From: a virus | Length of the DNA: 64,000 bases | IMG/VR virus record: IMGVR_UViG_3300009008_000022 | Location: 1 to 64,000 of that record | Strand: one strand, 5' to 3' | Shown: one piece after another, positions 44,326 through 64,000 of the stretch | Layout: the number at the start of each line of letters is the position of its first letter | How positions within the stretch are numbered: the first letter of the stretch is position 1 | Program-made: the position numbers and the translations under genes | The notes under the pieces: generated by a model | What the model saw: the letters and a program-made list of their open reading frames with translations, nothing else | What the model was told of the DNA's origin: nothing | The model's database searches: none

Positions 44326-44350
44326 AGTGATAAAACTGGAGGGCGCCAAA

Positions 44351-45436
44351 ATGACTGTACTTTCCGATGCCGTGAAACTCGCGGCTACGTTTTCTGACAC
44401 GAAAAGCCCACACGAGGGATACCGCGGCGTGCAGCTCCGGCCGGATGGCCTGTCGGCTATTTGCAACGGCCGCGCGGTGACGGTGCGGCTGGACTTGGGA
44501 GAGGTGGAGGGCGTAGCCAACGCGACCGATCTCAAGCGCGCGGTGTCCGCCCTGGGCGACGACGTAGAGCTAGAGGTTGACGGCAACATGCTGTCGGTCA
44601 TTCGCGACGGTGGGCGCGGTGTGCTGTCTCTGCCCCTGCTGTCTCTGGCTCATGCGGTCAAGGTGCCGGAGCCGCCGGAGGATGCGACCTGGCACGAGGT
44701 GGAAGGGTGGGAGGCGGTCAAGCGCGCCTCGTGGTGCACAGGGTCCGACGTTAGCCGCCCCTGGCTTTGCGCGGTGCACCTTAGCCCGCTGGGCTGGGTT
44801 GAGGCGACAGACGGCCACGCGGGCGTGCGGGTGCGACTCGGTGACGTGCTGGAGGACAGCGGCGAAGTGGTGGCGGACCTGTCCAGCGTGTTTGGCTCTG
44901 GGATCTTGGTCCGGCCGGACGTGCTAGGCGGTGGGGAGTCGAGCAAGGCGCAGATCACGAGGGAGAAAGATTGGCTATTCGTGCGCGGCCTGGGCGACGG
45001 CGGTGTGAGGGGAATCAAGGTGGTGGACAGCAAGTTCCCGGCGGTCCAGCGCGTGTTTGAGGATCCGCGCGACTATCCCACCGTGAGCGTTGATCCCGCG
45101 GAGCTGCTAGACGTGGCGCGGGAGGCCGCGGTGGTGGGCGGCCCGGTGTCGCTGGGGTTGGAGGCGGGCATGGACATTTTGCACGTCGAATGCGAGGGGC
45201 CAGGGACCGAGGCGGGGCATTACAAGGGCGAGGTTGGCGTGGTGGGCATGGCCGGAGATCACGAATTGGGGTGGGTTGCCCTGGAATCGCGCCTGCTGAT
45301 CTCGGCTATCCAGGCGGCCGGAGAGGAAGTGATCAGGGTGGGCTTTAAGCTGGTGCCCAACGGATCACTTGAGCCGGTTTATCTGTCAGACGACAGCGGC
45401 GAATATGAGGCCGTGATCATGCCGATGAGAATGTAA
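44351..45436 (+). CDS. dnaN: DNA polymerase III beta sliding clamp-like protein
   Basis: D.SRP.L..V, ATDGH, KFP...V, C-terminal VIMPMR; about 361 aa; divergent. Confidence 0.78.
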   Translation: MTVLSDAVKLAATFSDTKSPHEGYRGVQLRPDGLSAICNGRAVTVRLDLGEVEGVANATDLKRAVSALGDDVELEVDGNMLSVIRDGGRGVLSLPLLSLAHAVKVPEPPEDATWHEVEGWEAVKRASWCTGSDVSRPWLCAVHLSPLGWVEATDGHAGVRVRLGDVLEDSGEVVADLSSVFGSGILVRPDVLGGGESSKAQITREKDWLFVRGLGDGGVRGIKVVDSKFPAVQRVFEDPRDYPTVSVDPAELLDVAREAAVVGGPVSLGLEAGMDILHVECEGPGTEAGHYKGEVGVVGMAGDHELGWVALESRLLISAIQAAGEEVIRVGFKLVPNGSLEPVYLSDDSGEYEAVIMPMRM

Positions 45437-53084: not shown

Positions 53085-54851
53085 ATGAGATCAACCCGCA
53101 AGCTGCCGAATAACTGCCTACGCAGGCACGATCCACCGGTACGCACGCCCGTTGTGGGCGGCCAAGTCCAGCGGTCGCTCAAGGACGTAATCAGCGAGAT
53201 CAAGGATCAGGGCGAGCTGCAATCTTCGCTCACGTCCGCCACAACTCAGGCCGCGCTGCATGAGCACATGCTCGTGGCGAGCTGCGCTTACTTCGCAGAG
53301 GCGACGATCAGCGGTCCTAACGAGGAGCCTTACAACGGCCGGTTTCTAATCGCAAAGCACCACCTGGCATGGGATGAGGCGCTGCTCAGCAACAAGAAGC
53401 TCTGCATTCAGGCAGCTCGTGACCACGGCAAGAGCCACTTTTGGGCGGTCGCTTTCCCAATCTGGCTTGGCGGGTGGCGAATGCCTGGCGGCCTGGGCTA
53501 TATGTTCAGCGCGAGCCAGGAGCTTGCCGAGGAAAAGCTGGAGCTGGTCAAGCGCGAGATCAAACAGAACGAGGCGCTGCATTGGCTGATACCCGAGAGC
53601 GGTGAGCGGTACTGGTCAAAGCGGGAGATCCGGCTGAGCACCGGAACCATCATCCGAGCCCGCGGTTGGGGCGTCCGCGTCCGAGGCGGCCACCCTCAGT
53701 GGATCATTGCAGACGACGTGTTAGACGACGACTGCTTGTATTCGGAAACCATCCGGCGCCGGTCGGTTGAGTACTTCTTCAGCGTGCCCGTCAACATGGT
53801 GGTGCCGAACGGCTGGCTCGTCGTGGTCGGTACGCCGTTTCACTTCGCGGACCTGTACCACAAGATCGCGGAAACCGGGAAATACGCCTGCTTAACTTTT
53901 GCCGCCCTGGACGGCGAAGATCCGCTATTCCCGCAGCGGTACAACGCAGCTCGCTTGCAGGACAAACGAGAGGAGATCGGAGAGATCCGGTTTGCTCGCG
54001 AGTTTCTGTGCCGGCCGCTATCCGATGAGGCGTCCCTGTTTCCGTCGCACCTGTTTGAAGGTGACGAGGTGCGCGTGCCGTACCGCCTGGGCATGGGCGC
54101 GGACCATTGGGAGGAGCGAAACATGCTCCGGTACACCGGCGTTGACCTGGCCTTTTCCGCCGAGACTGGCGCGGACTACACCGTGATCATCACGATTGCA
54201 GTAGACCCGCACGGCAACCGGTGGCTGGCAAACATGCGCAGGGGCCGCGGTTGGGGCTATTCCAGGCAGATCCAGGAGATGAAAGAGGAGTACGCGCTCA
54301 TGCGGCCTGATATGTTCCACATCGAGGCCAATCAGGCTCAGCGCATCCTGGGCGATTCAATCGCAGCTCAGTCCATTTTGCCCGTCCGGCTTTTCTTCAC
54401 GGCCGGCGCTCAGCCCAAAAAGCCCTGGACCCGCGGCATGACCAGCATTACCGCAGGCAAGCACAGCCTGGACCGCGGCGTACCGAGCTTGAGGCTGGCA
54501 TTCGAGCGCAAGAAGTGGCGGATCCCGCGCGGTGACGCGCACGCCATTGACATGACCGACACCTGGATCGCGGAGTTTAATTGCATTGCCTACGAAAACG
54601 GCAAGGTTGAGTCCGTGGGCGAGCATGACGATTGCGTGATGGCTACTTGGATGGCGGACACCGCAGCTCGCATGGGCGAAGGTGTTACGATGGTATTCGG
54701 AGGAGAGGAAGCAGAGCCGGAAAATGTTGATCCAGACGCGCCCGAAGCGGAGGATCTAGACTACTTCGGGCTAGGTGAGTACGATGCTGGGGAGGAACAA
54801 CCCCCGCAGTACAACCTGGGAAGCCTGATCGGAGACAGAACAGGAGAGTGA
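53085..54851 (+). CDS. terL: Terminase large subunit (true start may be slightly downstream)
   Basis: AARDHGKS (Walker A), VRG, IIADD (Walker B), VGTP...DLY, FAREF, GVDLA, HDD.VMA.W. Confidence 0.92.
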   Translation: MRSTRKLPNNCLRRHDPPVRTPVVGGQVQRSLKDVISEIKDQGELQSSLTSATTQAALHEHMLVASCAYFAEATISGPNEEPYNGRFLIAKHHLAWDEALLSNKKLCIQAARDHGKSHFWAVAFPIWLGGWRMPGGLGYMFSASQELAEEKLELVKREIKQNEALHWLIPESGERYWSKREIRLSTGTIIRARGWGVRVRGGHPQWIIADDVLDDDCLYSETIRRRSVEYFFSVPVNMVVPNGWLVVVGTPFHFADLYHKIAETGKYACLTFAALDGEDPLFPQRYNAARLQDKREEIGEIRFAREFLCRPLSDEASLFPSHLFEGDEVRVPYRLGMGADHWEERNMLRYTGVDLAFSAETGADYTVIITIAVDPHGNRWLANMRRGRGWGYSRQIQEMKEEYALMRPDMFHIEANQAQRILGDSIAAQSILPVRLFFTAGAQPKKPWTRGMTSITAGKHSLDRGVPSLRLAFERKKWRIPRGDAHAIDMTDTWIAEFNCIAYENGKVESVGEHDDCVMATWMADTAARMGEGVTMVFGGEEAEPENVDPDAPEAEDLDYFGLGEYDAGEEQPPQYNLGSLIGDRTGE

Positions 54852-55568: not shown

Positions 55569-55824
55569 TTTGCTTAACCACCACCTTAACTAGCAGCTTA
55601 ACTAGGTGCTGTCCCTGCCACCTGGACGCGAGCCGTCCGCCCCCGTCATTTTTGTCCGTCCGAAGCGGTGGAATTGTCCACCGATACGGTAAAGGTGCGA
55701 GATGATTGGGGGCGGCCTGTCGTTTTGCTTAACCTATGGCTTAACTAGCAACTTATCCAATTCGTAGCAGATGCAGATGCAGATGAAGATCTGTTTTTAA
55801 GGGGGGGTGCAGGGGGGGAAACCG
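55569..55824 (+). repeat. Non-coding second copy of the iteron/origin element
   Basis: Two triplets of CTTA(A/T)C(C/T) at 12-bp spacing (55573/85/97; 55728/40/52), then CGTAGCAGATGCAGATGCA and GGGGGTGCAGGGGG as in 33558-33657. Confidence 0.8.
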
Positions 55825-55839
55825 GGAGAAGGATCCGCC

Positions 55840-58800
55840 ATGCCTATTTGGCTAAAACAACCGCCGCAGCCCGCGCCGATAATCCAGGCGAACAGCGCCT
55901 TGCTCACCATGCGCCAGGCAGAGCGCACGCCACCGGCCAGCCGCGGTGAGTTTGGGAACATGAAGCAGGCCAACAGTGTGCGTGACGTGCTGGACGGGCT
56001 AGGTCTGGGGATGGATCTTGAGCGCGCCCTGGGCGAGCGCGTTGAGCAATGGCTGGCCTGTCGTACCCAGGTTGAGATCATGGAGCGCGCACGGCACGAT
56101 CTGGCCGGAGCTGTGGCGGATCCCTACGTCCGGCGCGAGATCATGGGCCGCGCCATGAACCTGTGGCTGCGCACCGTGCAACCGGCCGAGCGGGCGCCGA
56201 ACCATGGGACCATGATCATCAAGGCCCAGGCTGCGCAGTTCGCACCGGACAACCGGCGGCGGTGGGGAGGTGGGAAGCCCTACGGCGGGCAACGTCCGCC
56301 CTTGAGCCGGACGGTGACAGGACAGCCGAGCGGTGGAGGGTGGGAGGAAGTAAAGAACAGCGCCCATGGAGGTTGGCGCAGGCCGGACGGCCGCGGTGGT
56401 TACGAATATTGGTATCCAGGGCAGGGCGGCCCCGGTGGCGGCCCTGGGGGAGCTGGGGGCGAAGCCAAGCCTCACCCGAATGAGGGCCAGGGCAAGGGCG
56501 ATCCAAAGCCACCTGGCGTAAGGTGGGCACCTGTGCCGCACCATGCGCCGGGAACATTCCGCCGGCCAGCCGAAGATCATTCCGCGGGCGGGCCAGCTCA
56601 CGCTTCACGCATGGAGGCGCAAGGGATTGCCTCAGAGCCGCACCGCGGGGCAGCGGAGGGGGAGAGTCAAGGCAACGAAACCCAGGGCGACAAGCCCGCA
56701 GAATCAGGAAAGGACTCCGGCATCCCGCCAGAGCTGCAAGCGCAGCTCGCCCAGGCCATTGAAGCCTACGGTATGGACGCGGTGAAAAAGGGGCTGGGGA
56801 GCGTGACAGAGGCCGCGGCGAAGGCGGCCGATGAGCAGTACCAGGCCAAGGCCGCGGAGCTGGGGAAACATGAGACAGTCCAGGCCGCGGTAAAAGAGCA
56901 CTTCGGCGGCAAGCTGCGCAGCAAGCCGAGCGAGCAAGAGGTTAAACAGCTCGCAAAAAAGCTGGGCAACGATCCCGAGATCCGCAAGCTGGCTGAAACG
57001 GCCATGCAGGGCGCCGATGGTGCGGTGGTGGACGCGATAGCCCAGGCCGCGGTGGACGCAGCCCCCAAGGCCGATCCTGGCCTGGCTAAAAAGCTCCTGG
57101 TAGGCGCCAAGGTCGCAGCCAAGGCAGCTCTGCCGAGCGCGGCGTTTGGTTTCGTGGACAACTTCATGCTGTACCTGGCAGGGGCGAGCATTGACACCAT
57201 GATCGCAGCCATGGGTTTCGGCGCCGCGGTGGTGGCCGGCCTGGGCAACGCAATCAGTGATTCAGTGGGCGAAGCCGTGGCTGACAAGATGGAGCGTTTC
57301 CTCGACAAACTGCCAGGGCTGAAAGAGGACGAGAAGGATGTTCTGACCCCGGAGCAGCGTCAGAAGATCGAGAGCAAGGCTAAGGTCGCGGGCGTGTTTG
57401 TTGGCGCGATCATCGGCATGTGCCCGTTGCTGGTAGGGATCGGGTTTGGGGGAGCGCCAGCCGCCAAGTCAGAACGGCTGGTATTTGCCGGCGGCCGGTT
57501 GCTGCTCAAGAGCGAGCCGGACCCGTTGCCCGCCCTGGACGGAGCGCCCGAGCTGGTGTTTGTCATGGTGGACACCGAGCCGCGCGACGGCCTGTTTCTG
57601 GTCAAGGGAGCGGGGCACAAGTACCTCAGACGGATCCGCAACCCGAGCCCACCGCCCAACTGGCGCTATCTGTACAAGTACCCAACCAGGAAGGGTTTGG
57701 TACACGACGATCACCTCGTTGAAGGGGCGAAATTCAAGGGCAAACACGGCGACCTGGAGGGCCACTTTGAAGTAACCGGAGTGGTCAAAAAGAAGGGCAA
57801 GCACGTTATCGCGCTGAAGCACGACGAGTCCGGCAAAACGATCTACGTTCACCGCAAGGACATTCAGGGAATGCTCACCCGCTATCACAAGGATGCGGGC
57901 ACGCATAAGGAGCCGCGCAAGCGCAAGCCCAGGGCGCCCAGGGCGCCGGCTAAGAGCTTTCCCGAGCCGGACAAGAGCAAGGCAACCGAGGGCACCTACA
58001 GCGGCGAGCTGCCGAAGATCGGGCTCAGGGACACTCACGCATGGGAGGAGATGAAAGGCTTTGCTGACGATGAGCAAGCCGCGCGGGAATTGCTGGCGAG
58101 CTGGGACACGCACGGCCAGGAGTACGGCCTGATACCGCAGCCCAACGGGGTGATGATTATGCGCCGGACAGCTCGCACCGGCAGCAAGGCGGTGAAAGAG
58201 GGCGCGTCTACCGTGGTGGCGTTCAAGGGCGACGGCAAGATAGAGCGCCAGCAAGGCGAGTACATGGTCATGGAAATGAGCGAGCTGATCCCGAGCCACA
58301 AGCCAGGGAGCTTTGCGCCGGACCCGCGCTACCCCGATGGTGTTCAGGAGCGCGTTTACCACGACGATCCAAACGAGCGCGCGAAGGTGGAGGAGATCGC
58401 CCGCGGCCTGGATCCTTTTTTCGTGATCAACACCAATAACGACGGCGTTGGAGGGCCGCCCGTGATCACTCCAGACGGGATCGTGCTAGGCGGCAACGGT
58501 CGCACCATGGGGATCATGACGGCATACACGCACTACCCGGAGAGCGGGCAGAAGTACAAGGATCACCTGGCAAGCCAGGCCAGCGACTTTGGTTTCAGCT
58601 CGCATGACATTCAGGGCATGAGCCAGCCGGTGCTAGTGCGGCGCGTGGCGGTGGACGCGAATAACACGCAGAAGGCTCGCATGTGGGCGCGCGTGCTGAA
58701 TGAGCCGTTGACGCAGGGCATGGACCCGCGCACCGAGGAAGTTGCGGTCGCGAAGAACCACATGAACGAGCGCGTGATCGCCGCCCTGGTGGCCGGCATG

Positions 58801-59790
58801 AAAGAGGGCGAGACAATCCACGCCTTTTTGAGCGGGGCACATAGCCGTGAGTTTGTGGACGGGTTGAAGCTGGCCGGCATCATCGACCGGTACAACGAAA
58901 GCAAGTATCGCCACGTTGACGCCACGGCCGGAGCTGACAAGCAAGGGCTGCTTAACGAGGAAGGGATCATGAGGATCCAGCGCGTGCTAATCGCCTCGCT
59001 TATCCCTGATTCTCGGCTGCTCAAGCGTATGCCGAAAAACATGATCACAGCTCTGGCCGGCAGCGTGCCGCACCTGTACCGCGCCCAGGCCGCCGGTTGG
59101 GATCTGTCCGGCGCGCTGGCCGCGGCGGCGGACGCCTGGCTTGACGCGAAACACCGGGAGTACAAGACAGCCGCCGCCTACCTCAAGGCCACCGAAATGG
59201 ACTACGGCGACGGCGATAACAAGATGGCGCCGTTGATGAAAGATCAGGCCGCGGAGTTTATGTTTCGGATCCTGTTCAAACCGCAGGCCACCGCGACGGC
59301 CACAAAGATGCGCGAGCTGGCAAACCGCGCGGGAATGGCGAAGCAAGCCCGAGAGGAGCAGGACAGCGGCGGCATGTTTGCCATGCTGGGCGAAACCGCG
59401 GACGCGCCAGAGCCGGAGAAGTTGACCGACGCGCTTGATACGATCTGGGGTATCACGGCAGAGGGGCGCGGCCGGCGCCAGGCGGAAAAGGACGCGGCCA
59501 GGGCGGAACAGCTCAAGGCGTACCAGGCGCGAGCCGATGAAATGGGAATGCACGTCGAGCAGTACGAGGCTTACCAGGATTGGGCCGCGGAGGACAAGAA
59601 GTGGCAGGACCGGCAGAACAAGCGCAAGCGCAAGGCGCGCAAGCCGGACCCGAGGCCGGAGAAGCCGCCGATCATCCAAGGGCTGAGAGTGGGACACCGG
59701 GAGCACAACATGGGGCTATTCCGCGAGCACGATGCGAAGCGACGGCGCGAGCAGATGAAAGACGACAGCCGGGAGCGGGAGGCAAGTTAA
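55840..59790 (+). CDS. Large polyvalent protein 1: repeat tag, TMEM65-like membrane domain, HKY module, DdrB-like ParB domain (start 55840 or 55960)
   Basis: FGFVDNF...AG..ID...AGLGNAISD..G...G...GAIIGM.PL (57121-57438); Y.V.E..ELIPSH...YP..VQ.R...GPPVI..DG.V.GGNGR...PVLVR (about 58255-58650). Confidence 0.85.
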   Translation: MPIWLKQPPQPAPIIQANSALLTMRQAERTPPASRGEFGNMKQANSVRDVLDGLGLGMDLERALGERVEQWLACRTQVEIMERARHDLAGAVADPYVRREIMGRAMNLWLRTVQPAERAPNHGTMIIKAQAAQFAPDNRRRWGGGKPYGGQRPPLSRTVTGQPSGGGWEEVKNSAHGGWRRPDGRGGYEYWYPGQGGPGGGPGGAGGEAKPHPNEGQGKGDPKPPGVRWAPVPHHAPGTFRRPAEDHSAGGPAHASRMEAQGIASEPHRGAAEGESQGNETQGDKPAESGKDSGIPPELQAQLAQAIEAYGMDAVKKGLGSVTEAAAKAADEQYQAKAAELGKHETVQAAVKEHFGGKLRSKPSEQEVKQLAKKLGNDPEIRKLAETAMQGADGAVVDAIAQAAVDAAPKADPGLAKKLLVGAKVAAKAALPSAAFGFVDNFMLYLAGASIDTMIAAMGFGAAVVAGLGNAISDSVGEAVADKMERFLDKLPGLKEDEKDVLTPEQRQKIESKAKVAGVFVGAIIGMCPLLVGIGFGGAPAAKSERLVFAGGRLLLKSEPDPLPALDGAPELVFVMVDTEPRDGLFLVKGAGHKYLRRIRNPSPPPNWRYLYKYPTRKGLVHDDHLVEGAKFKGKHGDLEGHFEVTGVVKKKGKHVIALKHDESGKTIYVHRKDIQGMLTRYHKDAGTHKEPRKRKPRAPRAPAKSFPEPDKSKATEGTYSGELPKIGLRDTHAWEEMKGFADDEQAARELLASWDTHGQEYGLIPQPNGVMIMRRTARTGSKAVKEGASTVVAFKGDGKIERQQGEYMVMEMSELIPSHKPGSFAPDPRYPDGVQERVYHDDPNERAKVEEIARGLDPFFVINTNNDGVGGPPVITPDGIVLGGNGRTMGIMTAYTHYPESGQKYKDHLASQASDFGFSSHDIQGMSQPVLVRRVAVDANNTQKARMWARVLNEPLTQGMDPRTEEVAVAKNHMNERVIAALVAGMKEGETIHAFLSGAHSREFVDGLKLAGIIDRYNESKYRHVDATAGADKQGLLNEEGIMRIQRVLIASLIPDSRLLKRMPKNMITALAGSVPHLYRAQAAGWDLSGALAAAADAWLDAKHREYKTAAAYLKATEMDYGDGDNKMAPLMKDQAAEFMFRILFKPQATATATKMRELANRAGMAKQAREEQDSGGMFAMLGETADAPEPEKLTDALDTIWGITAEGRGRRQAEKDAARAEQLKAYQARADEMGMHVEQYEAYQDWAAEDKKWQDRQNKRKRKARKPDPRPEKPPIIQGLRVGHREHNMGLFREHDAKRRREQMKDDSREREAS

Positions 59791-62183
59791 TGGCGAAGGC
59801 AGAGAAGAAGGGCGCCGCCGCGGCCGGAGTCCGGTACGTCATGGACTGCCTGCTGGTGGAGGCCAAATTCGAGGTACAAGGGGCGGTGCACCTGTCCATG
59901 ATTAAGGACCGGAGCGTGAGCGTTAAAACCTCAGAGATCGTCGCGCGCCTCAAGAAGTTCGCCCAGGCCAAGCTGGAGCTGGACCCGCGGTTTCGCGCCG
60001 GTTGGGGCAGCTCGCCAGTGACCGATGAGCAGCTACACGCAATCGTCGGGCCGTTGGTTGAAATGCGGGCCGGAAAGATCGTCAAGGGCGGTGAGCGGAT
60101 CTGGTGCCAGGGAGGGCCAGCTCCGCGCCCTTTCGTTAAGGGCGAGCGGCCGTCCGGCGCAGGCTGGCAGGCCGTACCAAATACCAAATTTGGCGGGTAC
60201 AGGCGCCGCGGCAAGGGCGGCAAGTGGGAGTATTGGTATCCCGAAAAGCACGCCAAGTTGGGCCATGGGTTTGAAGCTGAGCATGTGGAGCTGCGCGAAA
60301 AGCGCGACCGCGTTGCGGCCGACATAGAGCGCCGCGGCCTGGGGGTGGAGTACGAAACGAGCCCAGGCCGGTATCTGGTTGTCATGCCGGACCCGTCGCA
60401 CGCGGGCAAGGTCCGCACGCAGAGCTACGATGAGCACGGATTCTCTGGGCACCGCACCTATGACGATCTGCCAGCTCTGGCCGCGGACGTTGCCAAGTGG
60501 GAGTACAACGGGATCAAGCCAGCTCAGGCCGGCACGCTAGACAAGCTCGCCCAGGGCGAGCCATGGCGCCAGGCCGCCCTTCACCAGCAAGCGTTAAGGG
60601 AGATCGAAAGCCTGGAGAGGCAGGGGCAGGACGTGAGCGAGCTACACGCGGTCCTAGCTCGCAAAGGGTCAGAGGCGCTACTGGCGCACCTGGGCAAGTC
60701 GGAGGCGCCGCGGTTGCTCGCCCTGGGCGACCGGTTGGTCAAGGCTGGCGTTGGAGCGGAGCGGCAACAGATCATGTTTGCAGCTCGCCAGCGCAAGCAG
60801 TACCCGCCAGGTTACAAGCCGGAGCACAAGGTCAAGGGAAAGACGGTCAAGGTCCACACTAACGGCTGGCAGGCTATCCCCAAGGGGCACAAGGGAGGCT
60901 ATCGGCGCCGGACCCGCGGCGGGTGGGAGTACTGGTATCCAGACCATCACGCGCGGCCTGGGCTACACGCACCGAGCGTGGAGCCGCACGGCGGCACGTT
61001 GGCCGAAGCGGTGGAGCTGCGCGAAAAGCACGGCGTGCCGATCCATGTAAGCTGTGGCGCTGGGGTGGACAGTACCGGTTTGCTGGTAGGCATGTATCAG
61101 CAGGGGATCCGGCCGGATGCGGTTGTGTTTGCGGACGTGGGGAACGAAAACCCGCGCACTTATATGTTCCTTCCCCACCTGGACGCATGGCTGAGATCGG
61201 TTGGCTTCCCGCCCCTAACCGTGGTGCGAAACAAGCCGACCGTTAGCGCCTCAGAAATGGTGAGAGAGGCGCGCGGAAAGACTTACGCCACGTTGGAACA
61301 GAACGTGGTGCTGCATGAAACCCTGCCGTCAATCTCACTGGCCGGTGGCCGCGGTTGCAGCCAGAAGTGGAAACACCAGCCTCAAGAAGCCTGGGCAAAC
61401 CAGCGCGAGGATTGCCAGTCGGCATGGGAGCAGGGCTTCAAGGTCACGAAGCTAATCGGCTACAGCTCTGACCCGGCGGACAAGCGCCGGCCGGATATGC
61501 CGGACGATGAGAAGTATCACTATCAGTACCCGTTGCGTGAATGGGGGTGGGATCGGGAGCGGTGCAAGAAAGAGATCGCCGCGGCCGGTATGCCCGTACC
61601 AGTCAAGAGCGCGTGCTGGTTTTGCACAGCGACCAAGCCGCACGAGCTGCGCCGCATAGTGAGCGAGTACCCCGACATCGGCCGCCGGATAATCCAGATG
61701 GAGGCCGCCGCGGAGGACAACCTACGCAAGATCCGCGGCCTGTGGGGCACACCGGTGAAGGGGGCCAGGGGCGCGCTAAAGAAGCCGGGAACAATGGCAG
61801 AGTGGATCATCGGGGAGGAGTTGCTGCCGGAGTTTAAGGGCCAGGATATTGTTGACCCGTGGTGGCGCCAATCAGGCCAGGTGACGCCCGGTAACGAGCA
61901 CTTCAAGGTGGCGGACGTGATGCACCTTGTAGACGCGCCACCGCCGCCGGTGAGCCCGCTTGAGGATCTAAGCGGCCTGGCTCCGGTGGACACCGACGAG
62001 CTGCGCGAGCAGAGCAAGGCGCGAAAGCGAGGTGGTGCGGTTCAGACCAGCTTGTTTAAGAGCGCGCCCAGGGCGACGATGAGGGACGGAGATCAAAAGT
62101 TCTGGGCAGCCATGGCATTGATCCAGGCGTTTGATCAATTCGACAGCATGGGCAAGGACGGCAAGCGGCATGGATCTGAATGA
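59790..62183 (+). CDS. Large polyvalent protein 2: two repeat tags and a PAPS-reductase-like (PP-loop) domain
   Basis: TAATG coupling; VSCGAGVDST, FADVG.E, CS.KWK, YPL.EWG..R..C, KSACWFC. Confidence 0.85.
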   Translation: MAKAEKKGAAAAGVRYVMDCLLVEAKFEVQGAVHLSMIKDRSVSVKTSEIVARLKKFAQAKLELDPRFRAGWGSSPVTDEQLHAIVGPLVEMRAGKIVKGGERIWCQGGPAPRPFVKGERPSGAGWQAVPNTKFGGYRRRGKGGKWEYWYPEKHAKLGHGFEAEHVELREKRDRVAADIERRGLGVEYETSPGRYLVVMPDPSHAGKVRTQSYDEHGFSGHRTYDDLPALAADVAKWEYNGIKPAQAGTLDKLAQGEPWRQAALHQQALREIESLERQGQDVSELHAVLARKGSEALLAHLGKSEAPRLLALGDRLVKAGVGAERQQIMFAARQRKQYPPGYKPEHKVKGKTVKVHTNGWQAIPKGHKGGYRRRTRGGWEYWYPDHHARPGLHAPSVEPHGGTLAEAVELREKHGVPIHVSCGAGVDSTGLLVGMYQQGIRPDAVVFADVGNENPRTYMFLPHLDAWLRSVGFPPLTVVRNKPTVSASEMVREARGKTYATLEQNVVLHETLPSISLAGGRGCSQKWKHQPQEAWANQREDCQSAWEQGFKVTKLIGYSSDPADKRRPDMPDDEKYHYQYPLREWGWDRERCKKEIAAAGMPVPVKSACWFCTATKPHELRRIVSEYPDIGRRIIQMEAAAEDNLRKIRGLWGTPVKGARGALKKPGTMAEWIIGEELLPEFKGQDIVDPWWRQSGQVTPGNEHFKVADVMHLVDAPPPPVSPLEDLSGLAPVDTDELREQSKARKRGGAVQTSLFKSAPRATMRDGDQKFWAAMALIQAFDQFDSMGKDGKRHGSE

Positions 62184-64000
62184 CCTGTTACAGCGAGGGT
62201 TGAGAAAGGCGGAACAGCTCGATCTGTTTGGGCCGGAGCAACTAACCTCAGACAGAGGGCCACGAGACACCGTGAAGCCGGCCACGCCGCGCCGAGTTGG
62301 TAAGCCAGGCCGCGGCAAGCGCCGCAAGAGCAAGCGCGTTATACCGCCGCACCAGGGCCACATGACGCCACCTGGCAAGGGTTGGCAGGCTATCCCGCGG
62401 GGCAAGAAGGGCGGTTTCAGACGCAAGGGCAGCAACGGCAAGTGGGAGTACTGGTATCCCAACAGGGGAATCACTCCCAGCCCGCACCATAAAGACATTC
62501 CCGACAGGCCCGATCCGGCGAAGGATCCGAAGGGCGCGCTGGCATGGTGGGGGATGCGCCTTTATGAAGGCACCGTCAACGACGAGGGGTTTTGGCAGGA
62601 CCACCGGAGGACAACCGGAGCCAGGCCGCGGGTTTACAGCTTGAGTTGGGATTATGGCCGAATGAGCCTGGCCCTGTTTGATGCAGTCGAGGGCATACCT
62701 CAACAGCAAAGGGCCGCCATTTTGGAGCCGACGCGGGAGCGAGCGCACTTCCCCCGCGATCAGTTCACCGACATGGCCGAAAGCTATCGCCGGTTGGAGG
62801 AATACCAAGTCGCGGTGCGATTGAATGCCGAGCGCCGGCCGGCCGCCCCCGTCGAGGACGTTGACGCCGCGGTGGACAGCCTGCAAGGGGTGGAGCCGGA
62901 GTCCGCCCAGGGCGCCGACGTGCCGCACCTGGAAGTTGAGGAGTACGACGGCCGCGAGGGCGATCCAAACCACCTTACGCGCAAGGAAACCGGCCGCGTA
63001 ACGCCGCAAAGCCTGGCTCACTTAAAGGGGGCCAGGAAAGAGCACGGCTACATGCGCTGGCACGACGGCAGCGCCATTGGAGCGAAGGATCCAGGGGAAT
63101 ACTTCGGCAGATATACCAGGGAAAAGTGGGAGGCGTTTGTTGCCGACATTAAAGCGCGCGGCGTTCAGGATCCGGTTTTCATCGTTAGGAACCCAGAGCC
63201 AGGCACGCGGCACGATCCGGCTGGAACGTGGGTGTATGAGGGCAATCACCGCATAGCCGCGGCATTGGAGGCGGGGGTTAAAACGATCCCGGTAGAGATC
63301 CGCTACTTCGGCCACACTGAGCGCGACGGCCAGGCTGCGCCAGGGTGGGATCGTATGCCCGAGAGTGAGCCCGCCCAGGGCGAGCCACACGAGCCGGGGC
63401 CGGATACGTTTCACGGCAAACTTACGGCGCTACGGGCCGAGGCTGAAAGGCTGGACTTGCCCACGGCCGCCAGGCTGCTTAACCCGGAAGGCTGGCCCAC
63501 GGACGATGAGAAGTTGGGCAGCGTGCTAATGGACGCCACCGCGGAGCTGGGCGGGTTGCTAGTAGGGGAGGATACGCCGGACAACCGCCGCCGCCGTGAG
63601 CTGCTAATCGAGGGGATCAAGGTCTGGACCAAGGATGGCGAGTACGAGCCGATCACGTCCCTGCATACCAGCCGCGAGGATCTTCAACGGCTGGGGTTTA
63701 GGACCATTGCCAAGTTCACTGATCTGAAAAAGCTGGGCTACCGTATCGTTCAGTGGGCGCGCGTGGTGGGCGAGGTGTACGGCGACAACAAGGACATGGC
63801 CGGTTGGGAGATCGTTCACGAGTATGACCCGATGCACCCCGACGCGGGCAGCGGCGCAGGGCTGGCCGGCAAGCGTGATCACAAGACGGGTGACGGGTTG
63901 GGCTATTGGGAGGCTCCAGCGCCCGGTGATGCGCCAGGGATGAGCCCCGAGGCGGTGCGCTACACGGCGCCGGCCGGACCCGCGACAAGCAAGGTCCATG
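62170..64000 (+). CDS. Large polyvalent protein 3 (runs off the window; absent from ORF track): repeat tag and ParB/Srx-like domain
   Basis: Manual translation from ATG 62170: MDLNDLLQRGLRKAEQLDLFG...GWQAIPRGKKGGFRRKGSNGKWEYWYP...FVADIKARGVQDPVFIV...YEGNHRIAAALEAGVKTIPVEIRY; no stop seen. Confidence 0.85.
   Translation, partial: MDLNDLLQRGLRKAEQLDLFGPEQLTSDRGPRDTVKPATPRRVGKPGRGKRRKSKRVIPPHQGHMTPPGKGWQAIPRGKKGGFRRKGSNGKWEYWYPNRGITPSPHHKDIPDRPDPAKDPKGALAWWGMRLYEGTVNDEGFWQDHRRTTGARPRVYSLSWDYGRMSLALFDAVEGIPQQQRAAILEPTRERAHFPRDQFTDMAESYRRLEEYQVAVRLNAERRPAAPVEDVDAAVDSLQGVEPESAQGADVPHLEVEEYDGREGDPNHLTRKETGRVTPQSLAHLKGARKEHGYMRWHDGSAIGAKDPGEYFGRYTREKWEAFVADIKARGVQDPVFIVRNPEPGTRHDPAGTWVYEGNHRIAAALEAGVKTIPVEIRYFGHTERDGQAAPGWDRMPESEPAQGEPHEPGPDTFHGKLTALRAEAERLDLPTAARLLNPEGWPTDDEKLGSVLMDATAELGGLLVGEDTPDNRRRRELLIEGIKVWTKDGEYEPITSLHTSREDLQRLGFRTIAKFTDLKKLGYRIVQWARVVGEVYGDNKDMAGWEIVHEYDPMHPDAGSGAGLAGKRDHKTGDGLGYWEAPAPGDAPGMSPEAVRYTAPAGPATSKVH

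What the first reader, a model, noticed from the sequence alone, without database searches (positions are those of the whole stretch)
57121..57438. TMEM65-like membrane domain embedded in a phage polyvalent protein
Seen: AALPSAAFGFVDNFMLYLAGASIDTMIAAMGFGAAVVAGLGNAISDSVGEAVADKMERFLDKL...LTPEQ...AGVFVGAIIGMCPLL. As I recall it, this follows the TMEM65 family signature (PF.GFGFLDN..MI.AG..I.......AAALGN..SD..G...LT..Q...G...GC.LGM.PL). TMEM65 is a mitochondrial inner-membrane family linked to cation (Na+/Ca2+) handling, with acidic residues in its DN/SD helices. Inference: an ion-conducting or membrane-modulating module delivered at infection, possibly countering depolarising defences, excluding superinfection or aiding ejection. 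It is flanked C-terminally by the putative cleavage cluster.
Basis: partly seen in the sequence, partly recalled or inferred. Interest (0 to 1): 0.8.

Follow-up and report, generated by a model that had tools for sequence, protein, structure and literature searches.

The report
TMEM65 membrane module in phage cargo protein
An uncultured marine tailed phage carries, inside a giant multi-domain protein next to its DNA-packaging gene, a true relative of TMEM65 (the protein now proposed as the mitochondrial sodium/calcium exchanger), so this phage may deliver an ion-handling membrane module into its host, a kind of cargo not described in any paper searched.

Summary
The quoted peptide lies at 57121-57438 (+), inside a 1316-aa gene (55840-59790). 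Pfam TMEM65 (PF10507) matches at E 3.7e-16 and 59.5 bits (cut-off 25), over 105 of 109 profile positions. These are the only hydrophobic helices in the protein. All four residues reported as essential in human TMEM65 are kept.

The C-terminal half is a ddrB-ParB domain homologous to phage P1 DdrB, a head-internal protein co-ejected with the DNA. The gene follows the large terminase and opens an array of six giant polyvalent-type proteins.

About 20 other giant phage proteins carry the same module. They form one supported clade, separate from eukaryotic TMEM65. In a 109-kb phage the homologue sits between terminase and portal.

No match was found in 401 bacterial genomes, in plasmids, or with this domain as query in 50,697 phage records. 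One cultured Vibrio jumbo phage has a stand-alone 94-aa copy.

Best reading (0.45): a module cut out of the precursor, packaged, and inserted into the host inner membrane as a cation-binding or cation-transporting unit. Packaging, cleavage and transport are inferred, not shown.

This scan had already found the same module on other DNA (e1-6005985, e1-6005988, e1-5410207).

The parts
55840..59790 (+). Gene for the 1316-aa polyvalent-type protein. The ORF is open from GTG 55807 (1327 aa, P0002). All residue numbers in this report use the 1327-aa numbering.
   Evidence: the database copy P0003 is 1316 aa. A Shine-Dalgarno-like GGGAGAAGG lies before ATG 55840.
56338..56418 (+). A roughly 27-aa tag, GW..V....GG[WYF]RR....G.EYWYP (aa 178-204). 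The neighbouring giant proteins carry the same tag.
   Evidence: A regex search found copies in protein A (this one), B (two copies) and C. The same tag follows the TMEM65 module in giants of other phages: L003, P0009 and P0010. The lead came from earlier notes e1-6081578 and e1-6081587.
56728..57057 (+). Soluble all-helical pre-domain (aa 308-417). It runs into the first membrane helix and is conserved together with the TMEM65 domain in the giant proteins.
   Evidence: In the AlphaFold2 model on alignment A4, the blocks of ten residues covering aa 310-419 have mean pLDDT 81-95, with six helices. Identity to the other giants over aa 300-568 is 33-48%. No PDB match was found.
57124..57432 (+). 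TMEM65-family domain (aa 440-542), with three long helices:
- TM1: aa 441-468.
- TM2 plus an amphipathic extension: aa 473-501.
- TM3 with the glycine zipper G529/G533/G537: aa 515-543.

Key residues: D451, N452, D463, N481, S484, D485, G488, E496.
   Evidence: Pfam. These are the only hydrophobic stretches in the protein. The AlphaFold2 model has pLDDT 84.3 and pTM 0.71, with helices at 3-30, 35-63 and 77-105 of the domain.
57436..57480 (+). Conserved stretch just after TM3, G-I-G-F-G-G-APAA-K554-S555-E-R-L. This is a candidate proteolytic cut site and module boundary.
   Evidence: In the clade alignment F547 is kept in 17/19 rows, G548 in 19/19, and K554 in 11 of 14 aligned rows. The clade consensus is LLFGVSFGKS. 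Matches to the pattern K-[SAG]-E-[RA]-[LP], of which three are KSERL (A, D, F), occur in giants A, B, D and F. Cleavage itself is inferred. The lead came from e1-6081588 and e1-6081579.
58165..59088 (+). DdrB-like region (aa 787-1094). It contains the Pfam ddrB-ParB domain (aa 813-947; nt 58243-58647).
   Evidence: Pfam PF18763 scores E 3.9e-21. tblastn matches the DdrB genes of the darA operon in phages D6, P7 and P1, with E 3e-11 to 3e-8.
53085..54851 (+). Large terminase subunit, upstream of the polyvalent array.
   Evidence: phrog_38 at E 5.6e-54; weak Terminase_6C match.
59580..64000 (+). The next two giants of the array:
- An 867-aa protein with a PAPS-reductase-like domain.
- The start of a 1642-aa protein with ParB-like and DUF3560 domains.

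The array continues beyond the window with proteins of 858 aa (N6-methyltransferase), 1632 aa (PAPS reductase) and 2208 aa (Strawberry-notch-type helicase).

Best explanation
Identity (near certain, about 0.95). Residues 440-542 are a genuine TMEM65-family three-helix membrane domain. It forms a discrete module inside a phage polyvalent (Dar-type) protein. That protein's C-terminal half is a homologue of phage P1 DdrB.

Mechanism (leading hypothesis; every step below is inferred):
1. The precursor is made late with the head genes and loaded into the procapsid.
2. It is cut at linker sites, including the conserved G-F-G-K|S stretch right after the third helix. This frees the soluble DdrB-like part.
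3. The pieces are expelled with the DNA at infection.
4. The TMEM65 module, together with its helical pre-domain (aa 308-417), inserts into the host cytoplasmic membrane. Its N-terminus faces the cytoplasm.
5. There it binds and moves cations in the manner of TMEM65 (Na+/Ca2+ or H+-coupled exchange, or a leak). This changes ion balance or membrane potential at the entry site in the first minutes of infection.

An odd number of helices in the middle of a soluble protein would leave the two halves on opposite sides of the membrane. That is itself an argument for cleavage.
For: Family membership:
- Pfam TMEM65 at 59.5 bits against a cut-off of 25, nearly full length.
- The best non-phage relatives are named eukaryotic TMEM65 proteins.
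- The nearest ESM Atlas clusters are TMEM65.
- The model is confident and has three helices.
- The model superposes on another viral protein of 94 aa (TM 0.77/0.86, rmsd 1.9 A). That is probably the PF10507-annotated 94-aa protein of Vibrio phage 2.275.O.

The functional site is kept:
- Human D132, D167, G170 and E178 are reported as required for activity (bioRxiv 10.1101/2023.10.10.561661).
- Their equivalents D451, D485, G488 and E496 are present in this protein.
- Across 19 divergent giant phage proteins (40-60% identity) they are kept in 19/19, 18/19, 18/19 and 19/19 (acidic) rows.
- N452, D463, N481 and S484 are kept in 19/19 rows.
- A mere hydrophobic anchor would not need buried Asp and Asn residues.

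It behaves as a module:
- All 15 scanned large relatives carry it, at varying positions in the protein (for example aa 186-285, 1551-1651, and the C-terminal end).
- Its partners are typical polyvalent domains: ddrB-ParB, SNF2, InPase, LPD1, methylase, DarA_C.
- The clade has SH-aLRT support of 98.

Evidence bearing on delivery:
- The gene follows TerL.
- In an independent 109-kb phage the order is TerL, ddrB-ParB giant, TMEM65 giant, portal, InPase giant.
- The C-terminal half is homologous to P1/P7/D6 DdrB.
- P1 Dar proteins, including DdrB, are internal head proteins co-ejected with DNA (PMC12810830).
- The polyvalent-protein concept is set out in PMC5512222.

Evidence bearing on cleavage:
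- G-F-G-K-[SA] is conserved after TM3.
- K-S-E-R-L recurs in the sister giants.
Against: - No virion proteome, expression data or transport assay exists. The phage is an uncultured marine contig, about 61% complete.
- No protease, MuF or other packaging domain was recognised in the protein.
- How three hydrophobic helices would escape membrane insertion in the producing cell is unexplained.
- TMEM65's own role is still debated. One study treats it as a regulator of NCLX rather than a transporter (bioRxiv 10.1101/2023.10.06.561062, title and abstract listed).
- Three helices cannot form a pathway alone, and oligomerisation is not shown.
- The phage clade differs from the eukaryotic proteins by a one-residue deletion in the TM1-TM2 loop. 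It also lacks the family's nearly invariant Cys in TM3 and Q195.
- Conserved polar residues could serve folding or helix packing rather than ion binding.
Confidence: 0.45

Rival explanations
1. Passive membrane tether. The three helices only anchor the ejected protein, or its N-terminal part, in the host inner membrane at the DNA entry site. This keeps the anti-restriction enzymes next to the incoming DNA. No ions are moved.
For: - The module is always part of large enzyme-bearing proteins.
- It holds the only hydrophobic stretches in the protein.
- Lysines cluster before TM1 and in the TM2-TM3 loop. This suggests a defined topology (sequence).
Against: - An anchor does not explain 19/19 conservation of the buried D451, N452, D463, N481 and S484, nor of the residues needed for human TMEM65 activity.
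- With three helices, the DdrB-like part would end up on the opposite side of the membrane from the N-terminal part.
- Stand-alone copies of 94-120 aa exist in phages with nothing attached to tether.
Confidence: 0.22
2. Acts in the producing cell and is not injected. The precursor is made late and inserts into the inner membrane of the infected cell. There it could block superinfection, tune lysis timing or ion balance, or site head assembly at the membrane.
For: - Internal transmembrane helices are normally inserted co-translationally.
- The stand-alone copy in Vibrio phage 2.275.O lies among tRNA genes and small genes, not head genes.
- No packaging signal has been identified experimentally.
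Against: - The position between terminase and portal is conserved.
- The module is fused to a homologue of the head-internal, co-ejected P1 DdrB.
- The giants of the array share tags and linker cassettes, which points to common handling.
Confidence: 0.15
3. Part of the DNA-entry conduit. Glycine-zipper helices from several ejected copies assemble into an inner-membrane channel through which the genome passes. The comparison is with the ejection proteins of T7 or P22, as I recall them; this was not checked here.
For: - A GxxxGxxxG zipper in TM3 is invariant.
- The protein is probably ejected ahead of or with the DNA (inference).
Against: - The phage is a contractile-tailed myovirus with sheath and baseplate genes. 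In such phages the tail tube and tape measure usually provide the conduit.
- The module is rare. No match to this domain was found in 50,697 phage records. It therefore cannot be a general entry device.
- Three small helices with buried carboxylates resemble an ion site more than a DNA pore.
Confidence: 0.08
4. A chance resemblance of a Gly/Ala-rich hydrophobic stretch to the TMEM65 profile, with no homology.
For: Hydrophobic, glycine-rich segments attract weak profile hits. One example is the sub-threshold PT-VENN hit on TM3.
Against: - E 3.7e-16 over 105 of 109 profile positions, 34 bits above the cut-off.
- 774 family hits when the domain is used as query.
- Every invariant family column is kept.
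Confidence: 0.01

Closest known systems
Eukaryotic TMEM65 (Pfam PF10507). A mitochondrial inner-membrane protein needed for Na+-dependent Ca2+ efflux (bioRxiv 10.1101/2023.10.10.561661; PMC13254257).
   Same: - Three helices and the TM3 glycine zipper.
- The FGFxDN, GLGN..SD..G and GM.PL motifs.
- Equivalents of D132, E144 (as Asp), D167, G170 and E178.
- The predicted orientation, N-terminus inside, matches the topology reported for the human protein.

Sources.
   Different: - It is not a stand-alone 25-kDa protein with a mitochondrial presequence. It is an internal module (aa 440-542) of a 1316-aa phage protein.
- Identity to eukaryotic members is 31-45%.
- There is a one-residue deletion in the TM1-TM2 loop.
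- There is no poly-acidic tail.
- The family's nearly invariant Cys in TM3 is Ala.
- It belongs to a separate clade. Named eukaryotes form their own clade with support 100.
Polyvalent proteins of phages and conjugative elements (Iyer, Burroughs, Anand, de Souza and Aravind 2017, PMC5512222).
   Same: - A giant multi-domain phage protein with the polyvalent-specific ddrB-ParB domain.
- It sits beside terminase or portal genes.
- Relatives combine the module with SNF2, InPase, LPD1, methylase and DarA_C domains.

Sources.
   Different: - That paper lists soluble enzymatic and DNA-binding domains. Its text contains no 'transmembrane', 'TMEM' or 'DUF2453'.
- A membrane transporter-type module is a new kind of component.
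- No peptidase or MuF domain was detected in this protein.
Phage P1 Dar anti-restriction system (DarA, DdrA, DdrB, Hdf, DarB, Ulx): head-internal proteins co-ejected with the DNA (PMC12810830).
   Same: - Residues 787-1094 align with DdrB of the darA operon in P1, P7 and D6.
- Both are myoviruses.
- One relative carries DarA_C.
   Different: - No membrane domain was seen in the P1 Dar proteins here. The TMEM65 domain finds no match in any P1-like record.
- Here the functions are spread over six giant proteins after the terminase.
Stand-alone viral TMEM65-like proteins. Examples are NVP2275O_332 of Vibrio phage 2.275.O (94 aa, annotated PF10507), and 160-500-aa proteins on IMG/VR contigs and giant-virus MAGs.
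   Same: - Same domain and same predicted fold.
- In the tree they lie between the polyvalent clade and the eukaryotes.
   Different: - They are free-standing small proteins, not modules of polyvalent proteins.
- The genomic context differs: tRNA region and small genes.

Membership tests
TMEM65 family (Pfam PF10507) | Match to the family profile above the curated gathering score, over most of its length | tested here: met
   59.5 bits against a cut-off of 25, E 3.7e-16, profile positions 2-106 of 109. A six-frame search gives 65 bits.
TMEM65 family (Pfam PF10507) | Three transmembrane helices, with a glycine zipper in the last one | tested here: met
   Hydropathy peaks occur only at aa 441-549. 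The AlphaFold2 model has pLDDT 84.3 with helices at 3-30, 35-63 and 77-105. G91, G95 and G99 of the domain are invariant.
TMEM65 family (Pfam PF10507) | Residues required for the activity of human TMEM65 (D132, D167, G170, E178) | tested here: met
   Named animal TMEM65 proteins show the D...D...G...E spacing of 35, 38 and 46 that fits this numbering. The window protein has D451, D485, G488 and E496, with one loop residue fewer. Clade conservation is 19/19, 18/19, 18/19 and 19/19. Assigning the human numbers to the motifs also rests on my recollection of the human sequence.
TMEM65 family (Pfam PF10507) | The nearest relatives outside its own clade are recognised family members | tested here: met
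   phmmer hits include Trebouxia and Peranema proteins. Named TMEM65 proteins of animals and oomycetes appear. The ESM Atlas nearest clusters are 91-100% PF10507.
TMEM65 family (Pfam PF10507) | Na+-dependent Ca2+ transport, or control of such transport | not testable with these tools
   This needs flux assays.
Phage polyvalent proteins (PMC5512222) | A large phage protein that combines several unrelated domains, including polyvalent-specific ones | tested here: met
   TMEM65 plus ddrB-ParB in one 1316-aa protein. Relatives add SNF2, InPase, LPD1, DarA_C and methylase domains.
Phage polyvalent proteins (PMC5512222) | Location in the head-morphogenesis and packaging gene neighbourhood | tested here: met
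   The gene lies directly downstream of TerL. In L006 the homologue lies between TerL and portal.
Phage polyvalent proteins (PMC5512222) | An embedded peptidase, or a MuF or other head-incorporation domain | tested here: inconclusive
   Pfam and PHROGs recognised none. About 800 residues carry no annotation. The shared GW..EYWYP tag could serve this role.
Phage polyvalent proteins (PMC5512222) | Packaged in the virion and delivered with the DNA | not testable with these tools
   Inferred only, from homology to P1 DdrB and from gene position.
   No Pfam hit at E <= 1. VIT1 (6iu3) appears only at rank 47, E 2.6, for the longer model. The best VIA Z for the domain is 5.8, within the noise range for helical proteins.

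The most novel reading that the evidence does not exclude
Some tailed phages inject a working TMEM65-type cation exchanger into the host membrane together with their DNA. This would be a membrane-transport effector among capsid cargo.

A second part concerns origins. The prokaryotic-world relatives found here are viral. They are diverse, and they lie outside a single eukaryotic clade.
Probability: 0.15. Interest if true: 0.9.

Novelty: new variant of a known kind. Interest (0 to 1): 0.7.

Why it matters
For phage biology. Known polyvalent and Dar-type cargo consists of soluble enzymes that protect the incoming DNA. A conserved ion-site-bearing membrane module would add a new class of delivered function, namely manipulation of the host membrane or ion balance at the moment of entry. 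It also raises the question of how a membrane protein is stored in a capsid.

For mitochondrial biology. No TMEM65-family chain turned up among the PDB sequences searched, and the protein's mechanism is disputed. Minimal phage versions, a 94-aa stand-alone form and a 105-aa module, are compact natural variants. They keep the essential residues and may be easier to express, assay and solve.

For evolution. It was not seen in 401 sampled bacterial genomes. That makes its origin a testable question.

Tried and rejected
- **Homodimer prediction** of the domain (complex prediction, two copies, alignment A3): no verdict, score 0.00, and the fold was uncertain in at least one run. This is neither for nor against oligomerisation.
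- **PDB by sequence**: no TMEM65-family chain; the best E was 0.16, an unrelated protein.
- **Foldseek against PDB** for both models: nothing at E <= 0.001.
- **VIA-align against 48,161 chains**: best Z 5.8, within the noise range for helical proteins.
- **The window's TMEM65 domain against 50,697 phage records**: tblastn found no match even at E <= 5. Megablast of the whole gene also found nothing.
- **The domain against 72,556 plasmids**: none.
- **Pattern scan of 185,579 prokaryotic species genomes**: only two partial matches, L021 and L022. Neither keeps the domain. The patterns were tuned to the phage clade, so eukaryote-type copies in bacteria would have been missed.
- **PF10507 in 401 genomes of one bacterial phylum**: 0 hits. 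This is a sample, so the result is 'not found in those searched', not 'absent'.
- **The search for homologous proteins with the 106-aa piece, 'longer' lengths**: limited by word sharing; only 2 hits.
- **PHROGs annotation of the neighbours of the stand-alone copies** (L007, L009): uninformative. Whether those contigs are phages or giant viruses remains open.
- **Sigma-70 promoter and terminator scan upstream of the gene**: nothing.
- **One literature search was too broad to be useful**.
- **The 2026 language-model preprint that mentions TMEM65**: the term is not in the part of the text that is held.
Full report
**1. The observation**

It lies in frame in the long ORF 55807-59790 (+), 1327 aa from the GTG. 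The likely true start is ATG 55840, which follows a GGGAGAAGG Shine-Dalgarno-like stretch. That start gives the 1316-aa form held in the public protein collection (P0003). Residue numbers below use the 1327-aa numbering.

Pfam finds two significant domains:
- TMEM65 (PF10507): E 3.7e-16, 59.5 bits against a cut-off of 25, aa 440-542, profile positions 2-106 of 109.
- ddrB-ParB (PF18763): E 3.9e-21, aa 813-947.

A six-frame profile search of the whole record gives the same single TMEM65 hit at 57124-57432.

**2. Where it sits**

The window is part of an 81,458-bp linear IMG/VR virus record, estimated at about 61% complete, with about 63% G+C. Three marine-metagenome runs from one study hold the stretch. 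One of them may be the source sample.

The phage is a contractile-tailed myovirus. It has tail sheath, baseplate wedge and tail fibre genes. It also has replication genes and an amidase.

The gene follows the large terminase (53085-54851; phrog_38, E 5.6e-54), a 192-aa ORF and a 405-bp spacer. It is the first of six consecutive giant proteins on the same strand:

| Protein | Length | Recognised domains |
|---|---|---|
| A (this one) | 1327 aa | TMEM65, ddrB-ParB |
| B | 867 aa | PAPS-reductase-like |
| C | 1642 aa | ParB-like, DUF3560 |
| D | 858 aa | N6-methyltransferase |
| E | 1632 aa | PAPS reductase |
| F | 2208 aa | Strawberry-notch-type helicase |

These domains are typical building blocks of the polyvalent proteins described by Iyer et al. 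2017 (PMC5512222).

Residues 787-1094 align with the DdrB gene of the darA operon of phages D6, P7 and P1, at E 3e-11 to 3e-8. P1 Dar proteins, DdrB included, are internal head proteins that are co-ejected with the DNA (PMC12810830).

**3. Anatomy of the module**

The only hydrophobic stretches in the whole protein lie at aa 441-549.

An AlphaFold2 model was built on a 144-sequence family alignment. It is confident (pLDDT 84.3, pTM 0.71) and shows three long helices:
- aa 441-468.
- aa 473-501, a membrane helix that continues into an amphipathic stretch.
- aa 515-543.

Lysines cluster before helix 1 and in the loop between helices 2 and 3. This predicts N-terminus in and C-terminus out, which is the orientation reported for human TMEM65.

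A second model covers aa 300-568. It shows a confident all-helical soluble pre-domain (aa 308-417; block-mean pLDDT 81-95) that runs into helix 1. This region is conserved with the membrane domain in related giants. It has no PDB match.

Directly after helix 3 comes G-I-G-F-G-G-APAA-K554-S555-E-R-L. In related proteins the consensus is LLFGVSFGKS. In the clade alignment, F is kept in 17/19 rows, G in 19/19, and K in 11 of 14 aligned rows. Matches to the pattern K-[SAG]-E-[RA]-[LP], three of them KSERL (A, D, F), also occur in giants A, B, D and F of the same array.

**4. Is the functional site kept?**

Vetralla et al. [quoted passage not shown] They report that G140L and Q195E behave like wild type and that E144Q is more active.

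Named animal TMEM65 proteins show the conserved D...D...G...E at spacings of 35, 38 and 46, which fits those residue numbers. Assigning the human numbers to the motifs also rests on my recollection of the human sequence.

The window protein has D451, D485, G488 and E496, with one residue fewer in the TM1-TM2 loop. It also has D463 at the E144 position.

Conservation across 19 giant or related phage proteins that are only 40-60% identical:

| Position | Kept in |
|---|---|
| D451 | 19/19 |
| N452 | 19/19 |
| D463 | 19/19 |
| N481 | 19/19 |
| S484 | 19/19 |
| D485 | 18/19 |
| G488 | 18/19 |
| E496 (as E or D) | 19/19 |
| Three zipper glycines | 19/19 |

The dispensable Q195 position is not kept (1/19). 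In alignments of the full-length giants, the TMEM65 motif supplies nearly all the invariant columns. This pattern is what purifying selection on an ion-binding site would produce. A simple anchor would not require it.

**5. Relatives**

A full HMMER scan of 1.84 billion representative proteins gave 774 hits at E <= 0.001. Most of the top 16 or so are proteins of 1251-3037 aa at 50-60% identity. After them come proteins of 110-700 aa.

All 15 large relatives scanned carry PF10507. Their other domains:
- ddrB-ParB (6 of 15).
- SNF2 (3).
- InPase (2).
- LPD1 (2).
- Strawberry-notch helicase parts.
- N6 and Eco57I methylases.
- DarA_C.
- DUF5661.

The module's position within the protein varies: near the N-terminus, in the middle, or at the C-terminus. 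It therefore behaves as a shuffled module.

IMG/VR holds four more giants, L003-L006. In L006, a 109-kb phage, the gene order is terminase, ddrB-ParB giant, TMEM65 giant, portal, InPase giant.

Stand-alone copies also occur:
- Proteins of 250-500 aa on gene-dense viral contigs (L007-L014).
- Proteins of about 160 aa on giant-virus MAGs.
- A 94-aa protein of the cultured 349-kb Vibrio phage 2.275.O. Its GenBank note already says PF10507. It is probably the top BFVD structural match (TM 0.77/0.86, rmsd 1.9 A).

An IQ-TREE tree of 68 domains places the 20 polyvalent copies in one clade (SH-aLRT 98). The 21 named eukaryotes form another clade (SH-aLRT 100) on a long branch. The stand-alone viral and metagenomic forms lie between them. 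FastTree on 245 rows agrees. The tree is unrooted, so the direction of transfer is unknown.

Searches that found nothing:
- PF10507 in 401 sampled genomes of one bacterial phylum and in 14 control genomes.
- A phage-clade pattern scan of 185,579 species genomes gave no intact copy.
- Plasmids gave none.

The ESM Atlas neighbours are eukaryotic TMEM65 clusters and one Nucleocytoviricota cluster.

**6. How it most likely works**

Shown:
- A bona fide TMEM65 domain with an intact set of essential residues.
- It is a recurrent, mobile module of phage polyvalent proteins.
- The host gene lies in the packaging and head gene neighbourhood.
- It is fused to a homologue of a protein that P1 packages and ejects.

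Inferred:
- The precursor is loaded into the procapsid and processed.
- The module is expelled with the DNA.
- It inserts into the host inner membrane and binds or moves cations.

One structural argument supports processing. With three helices, the N-terminal 438 residues and the C-terminal 780 residues would lie on opposite sides of the membrane. Yet the DdrB-like part is expected to act in the cytoplasm. A cut at the conserved stretch after helix 3 resolves this.

I put the ion-module reading at about 0.45. The rivals are a passive tether (0.22), action in the producing cell (0.15), an entry-channel part (0.08), and chance (0.01).

**7. Comparison with what is known, and novelty**

It is a member of the TMEM65 family by profile, fold prediction and key residues. 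It is not a mitochondrial protein, and it belongs to a separate viral clade.

It fits the polyvalent-protein concept. However, the founding paper never mentions a transmembrane component. No paper in the searched library links TMEM65 with polyvalent proteins. The three papers that mention both TMEM65 and bacteriophage do not concern this by their titles and abstracts.

Precomputed Pfam labels in public collections, and the Vibrio phage record, already show PF10507. The domain call is therefore easy to make. What I did not find in any paper searched is the recurrent phage-cargo context and what it implies. I rate it a new variant of a known kind.

This scan had already reached the same reading on other DNA:
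- e1-6005985 and e1-6005988: by their description (a 1,409-residue head-operon protein, a 109-kb phage), probably the phage seen here as L006/P0007.
- e1-5410207: a stand-alone copy in a giant marine phage.

My analysis was done before I read those notes, and it agrees with them.

**8. Limits**

- There is no experimental evidence.
- The host is unknown. The nearest terminases are only 28% identical.
- The contig is incomplete, and no portal or protease gene was seen in it.
- The taxonomic labels of most small homologues are unknown.
- The survey of bacterial genomes is a sample.

Noticed in passing
window 55570-55595 and 55725-55750 (+): An exact 26-nt motif, TTGCTTAACC-N5-CTTAACTAGCA, occurs twice. 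Both copies lie in the 405-bp spacer between the 192-aa ORF and the polyvalent gene. None is expected by chance. No sigma-70-like promoter was found there. It may be a phage-specific promoter or operator for the giant-protein array.
   Followed up: partly
window 56338-56418, 60150-60242, about 60864-60941, 62368-62460; also L003, P0009, P0010: A tag of about 27 aa, GW..[VI]P...GG[WYF]RR...G.EYWYP, occurs in giants A, B (twice) and C of this phage. In giants of other phages it occurs just after the TMEM65 module. It may be a shared address or handling label.
   Followed up: partly
relatives L004, P0008, P0013, P0016, P0006, P0007, P0019 (alignment): Motifs of the type QL[SGD]LF, QMGFQF and QLGFDF lie 15-30 residues after the third helix in 7 of 19 relatives. 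They resemble beta-clamp-binding motifs. The window protein lacks one at that position. The phage does encode a DNA polymerase processivity factor at 44327-45436.
   Followed up: no
L023 4049-4333 (Vibrio phage 2.275.O._10N.286.54.E11, MG592671.1): A cultured 349-kb jumbo phage encodes a minimal 94-aa stand-alone TMEM65-family protein, NVP2275O_332, in a tRNA-rich region. It is the only phage record of 50,697 found to match a small stand-alone family member used as query.
   Followed up: partly
L013, L016, L017, L019, L020 (giant-virus MAG contigs): Low-GC giant-virus MAGs (22-30% G+C) encode TMEM65-like proteins of about 160-170 aa. BFVD also shows similar folds in Heterosigma akashiwo virus and mimivirus-like genomes.
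   Followed up: no
P0012 (546 aa) and P0025 (416 aa): Two metagenomic proteins each carry two TMEM65 domains in tandem. If the domain works as a dimer, these could be natural covalent dimers.
   Followed up: no
window 57337-57417 (aa 511-537): A sub-threshold match of the third helix to the N-terminal part of the PT-VENN pre-toxin domain (E 0.005, 17.4 bits against a cut-off of 20.3). It is probably a compositional effect of a glycine-zipper helix.
   Followed up: no
window 59580-64000 and L002 (G000 62000-81458): The array after the TMEM65 protein holds three PAPS-reductase-like domains, a second ParB-like domain with DUF3560, an N6-methyltransferase and a Strawberry-notch-type helicase. These are spread over five giant proteins. 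The contig ends 273 bp after the last giant, and no portal gene was seen.
   Followed up: partly
window 56728-57057 (aa 308-417): A confidently predicted six-helix soluble domain precedes the membrane helices (block-mean pLDDT 81-95). It is conserved in the giant relatives. It has no Pfam, PHROG or PDB match.
   Followed up: partly
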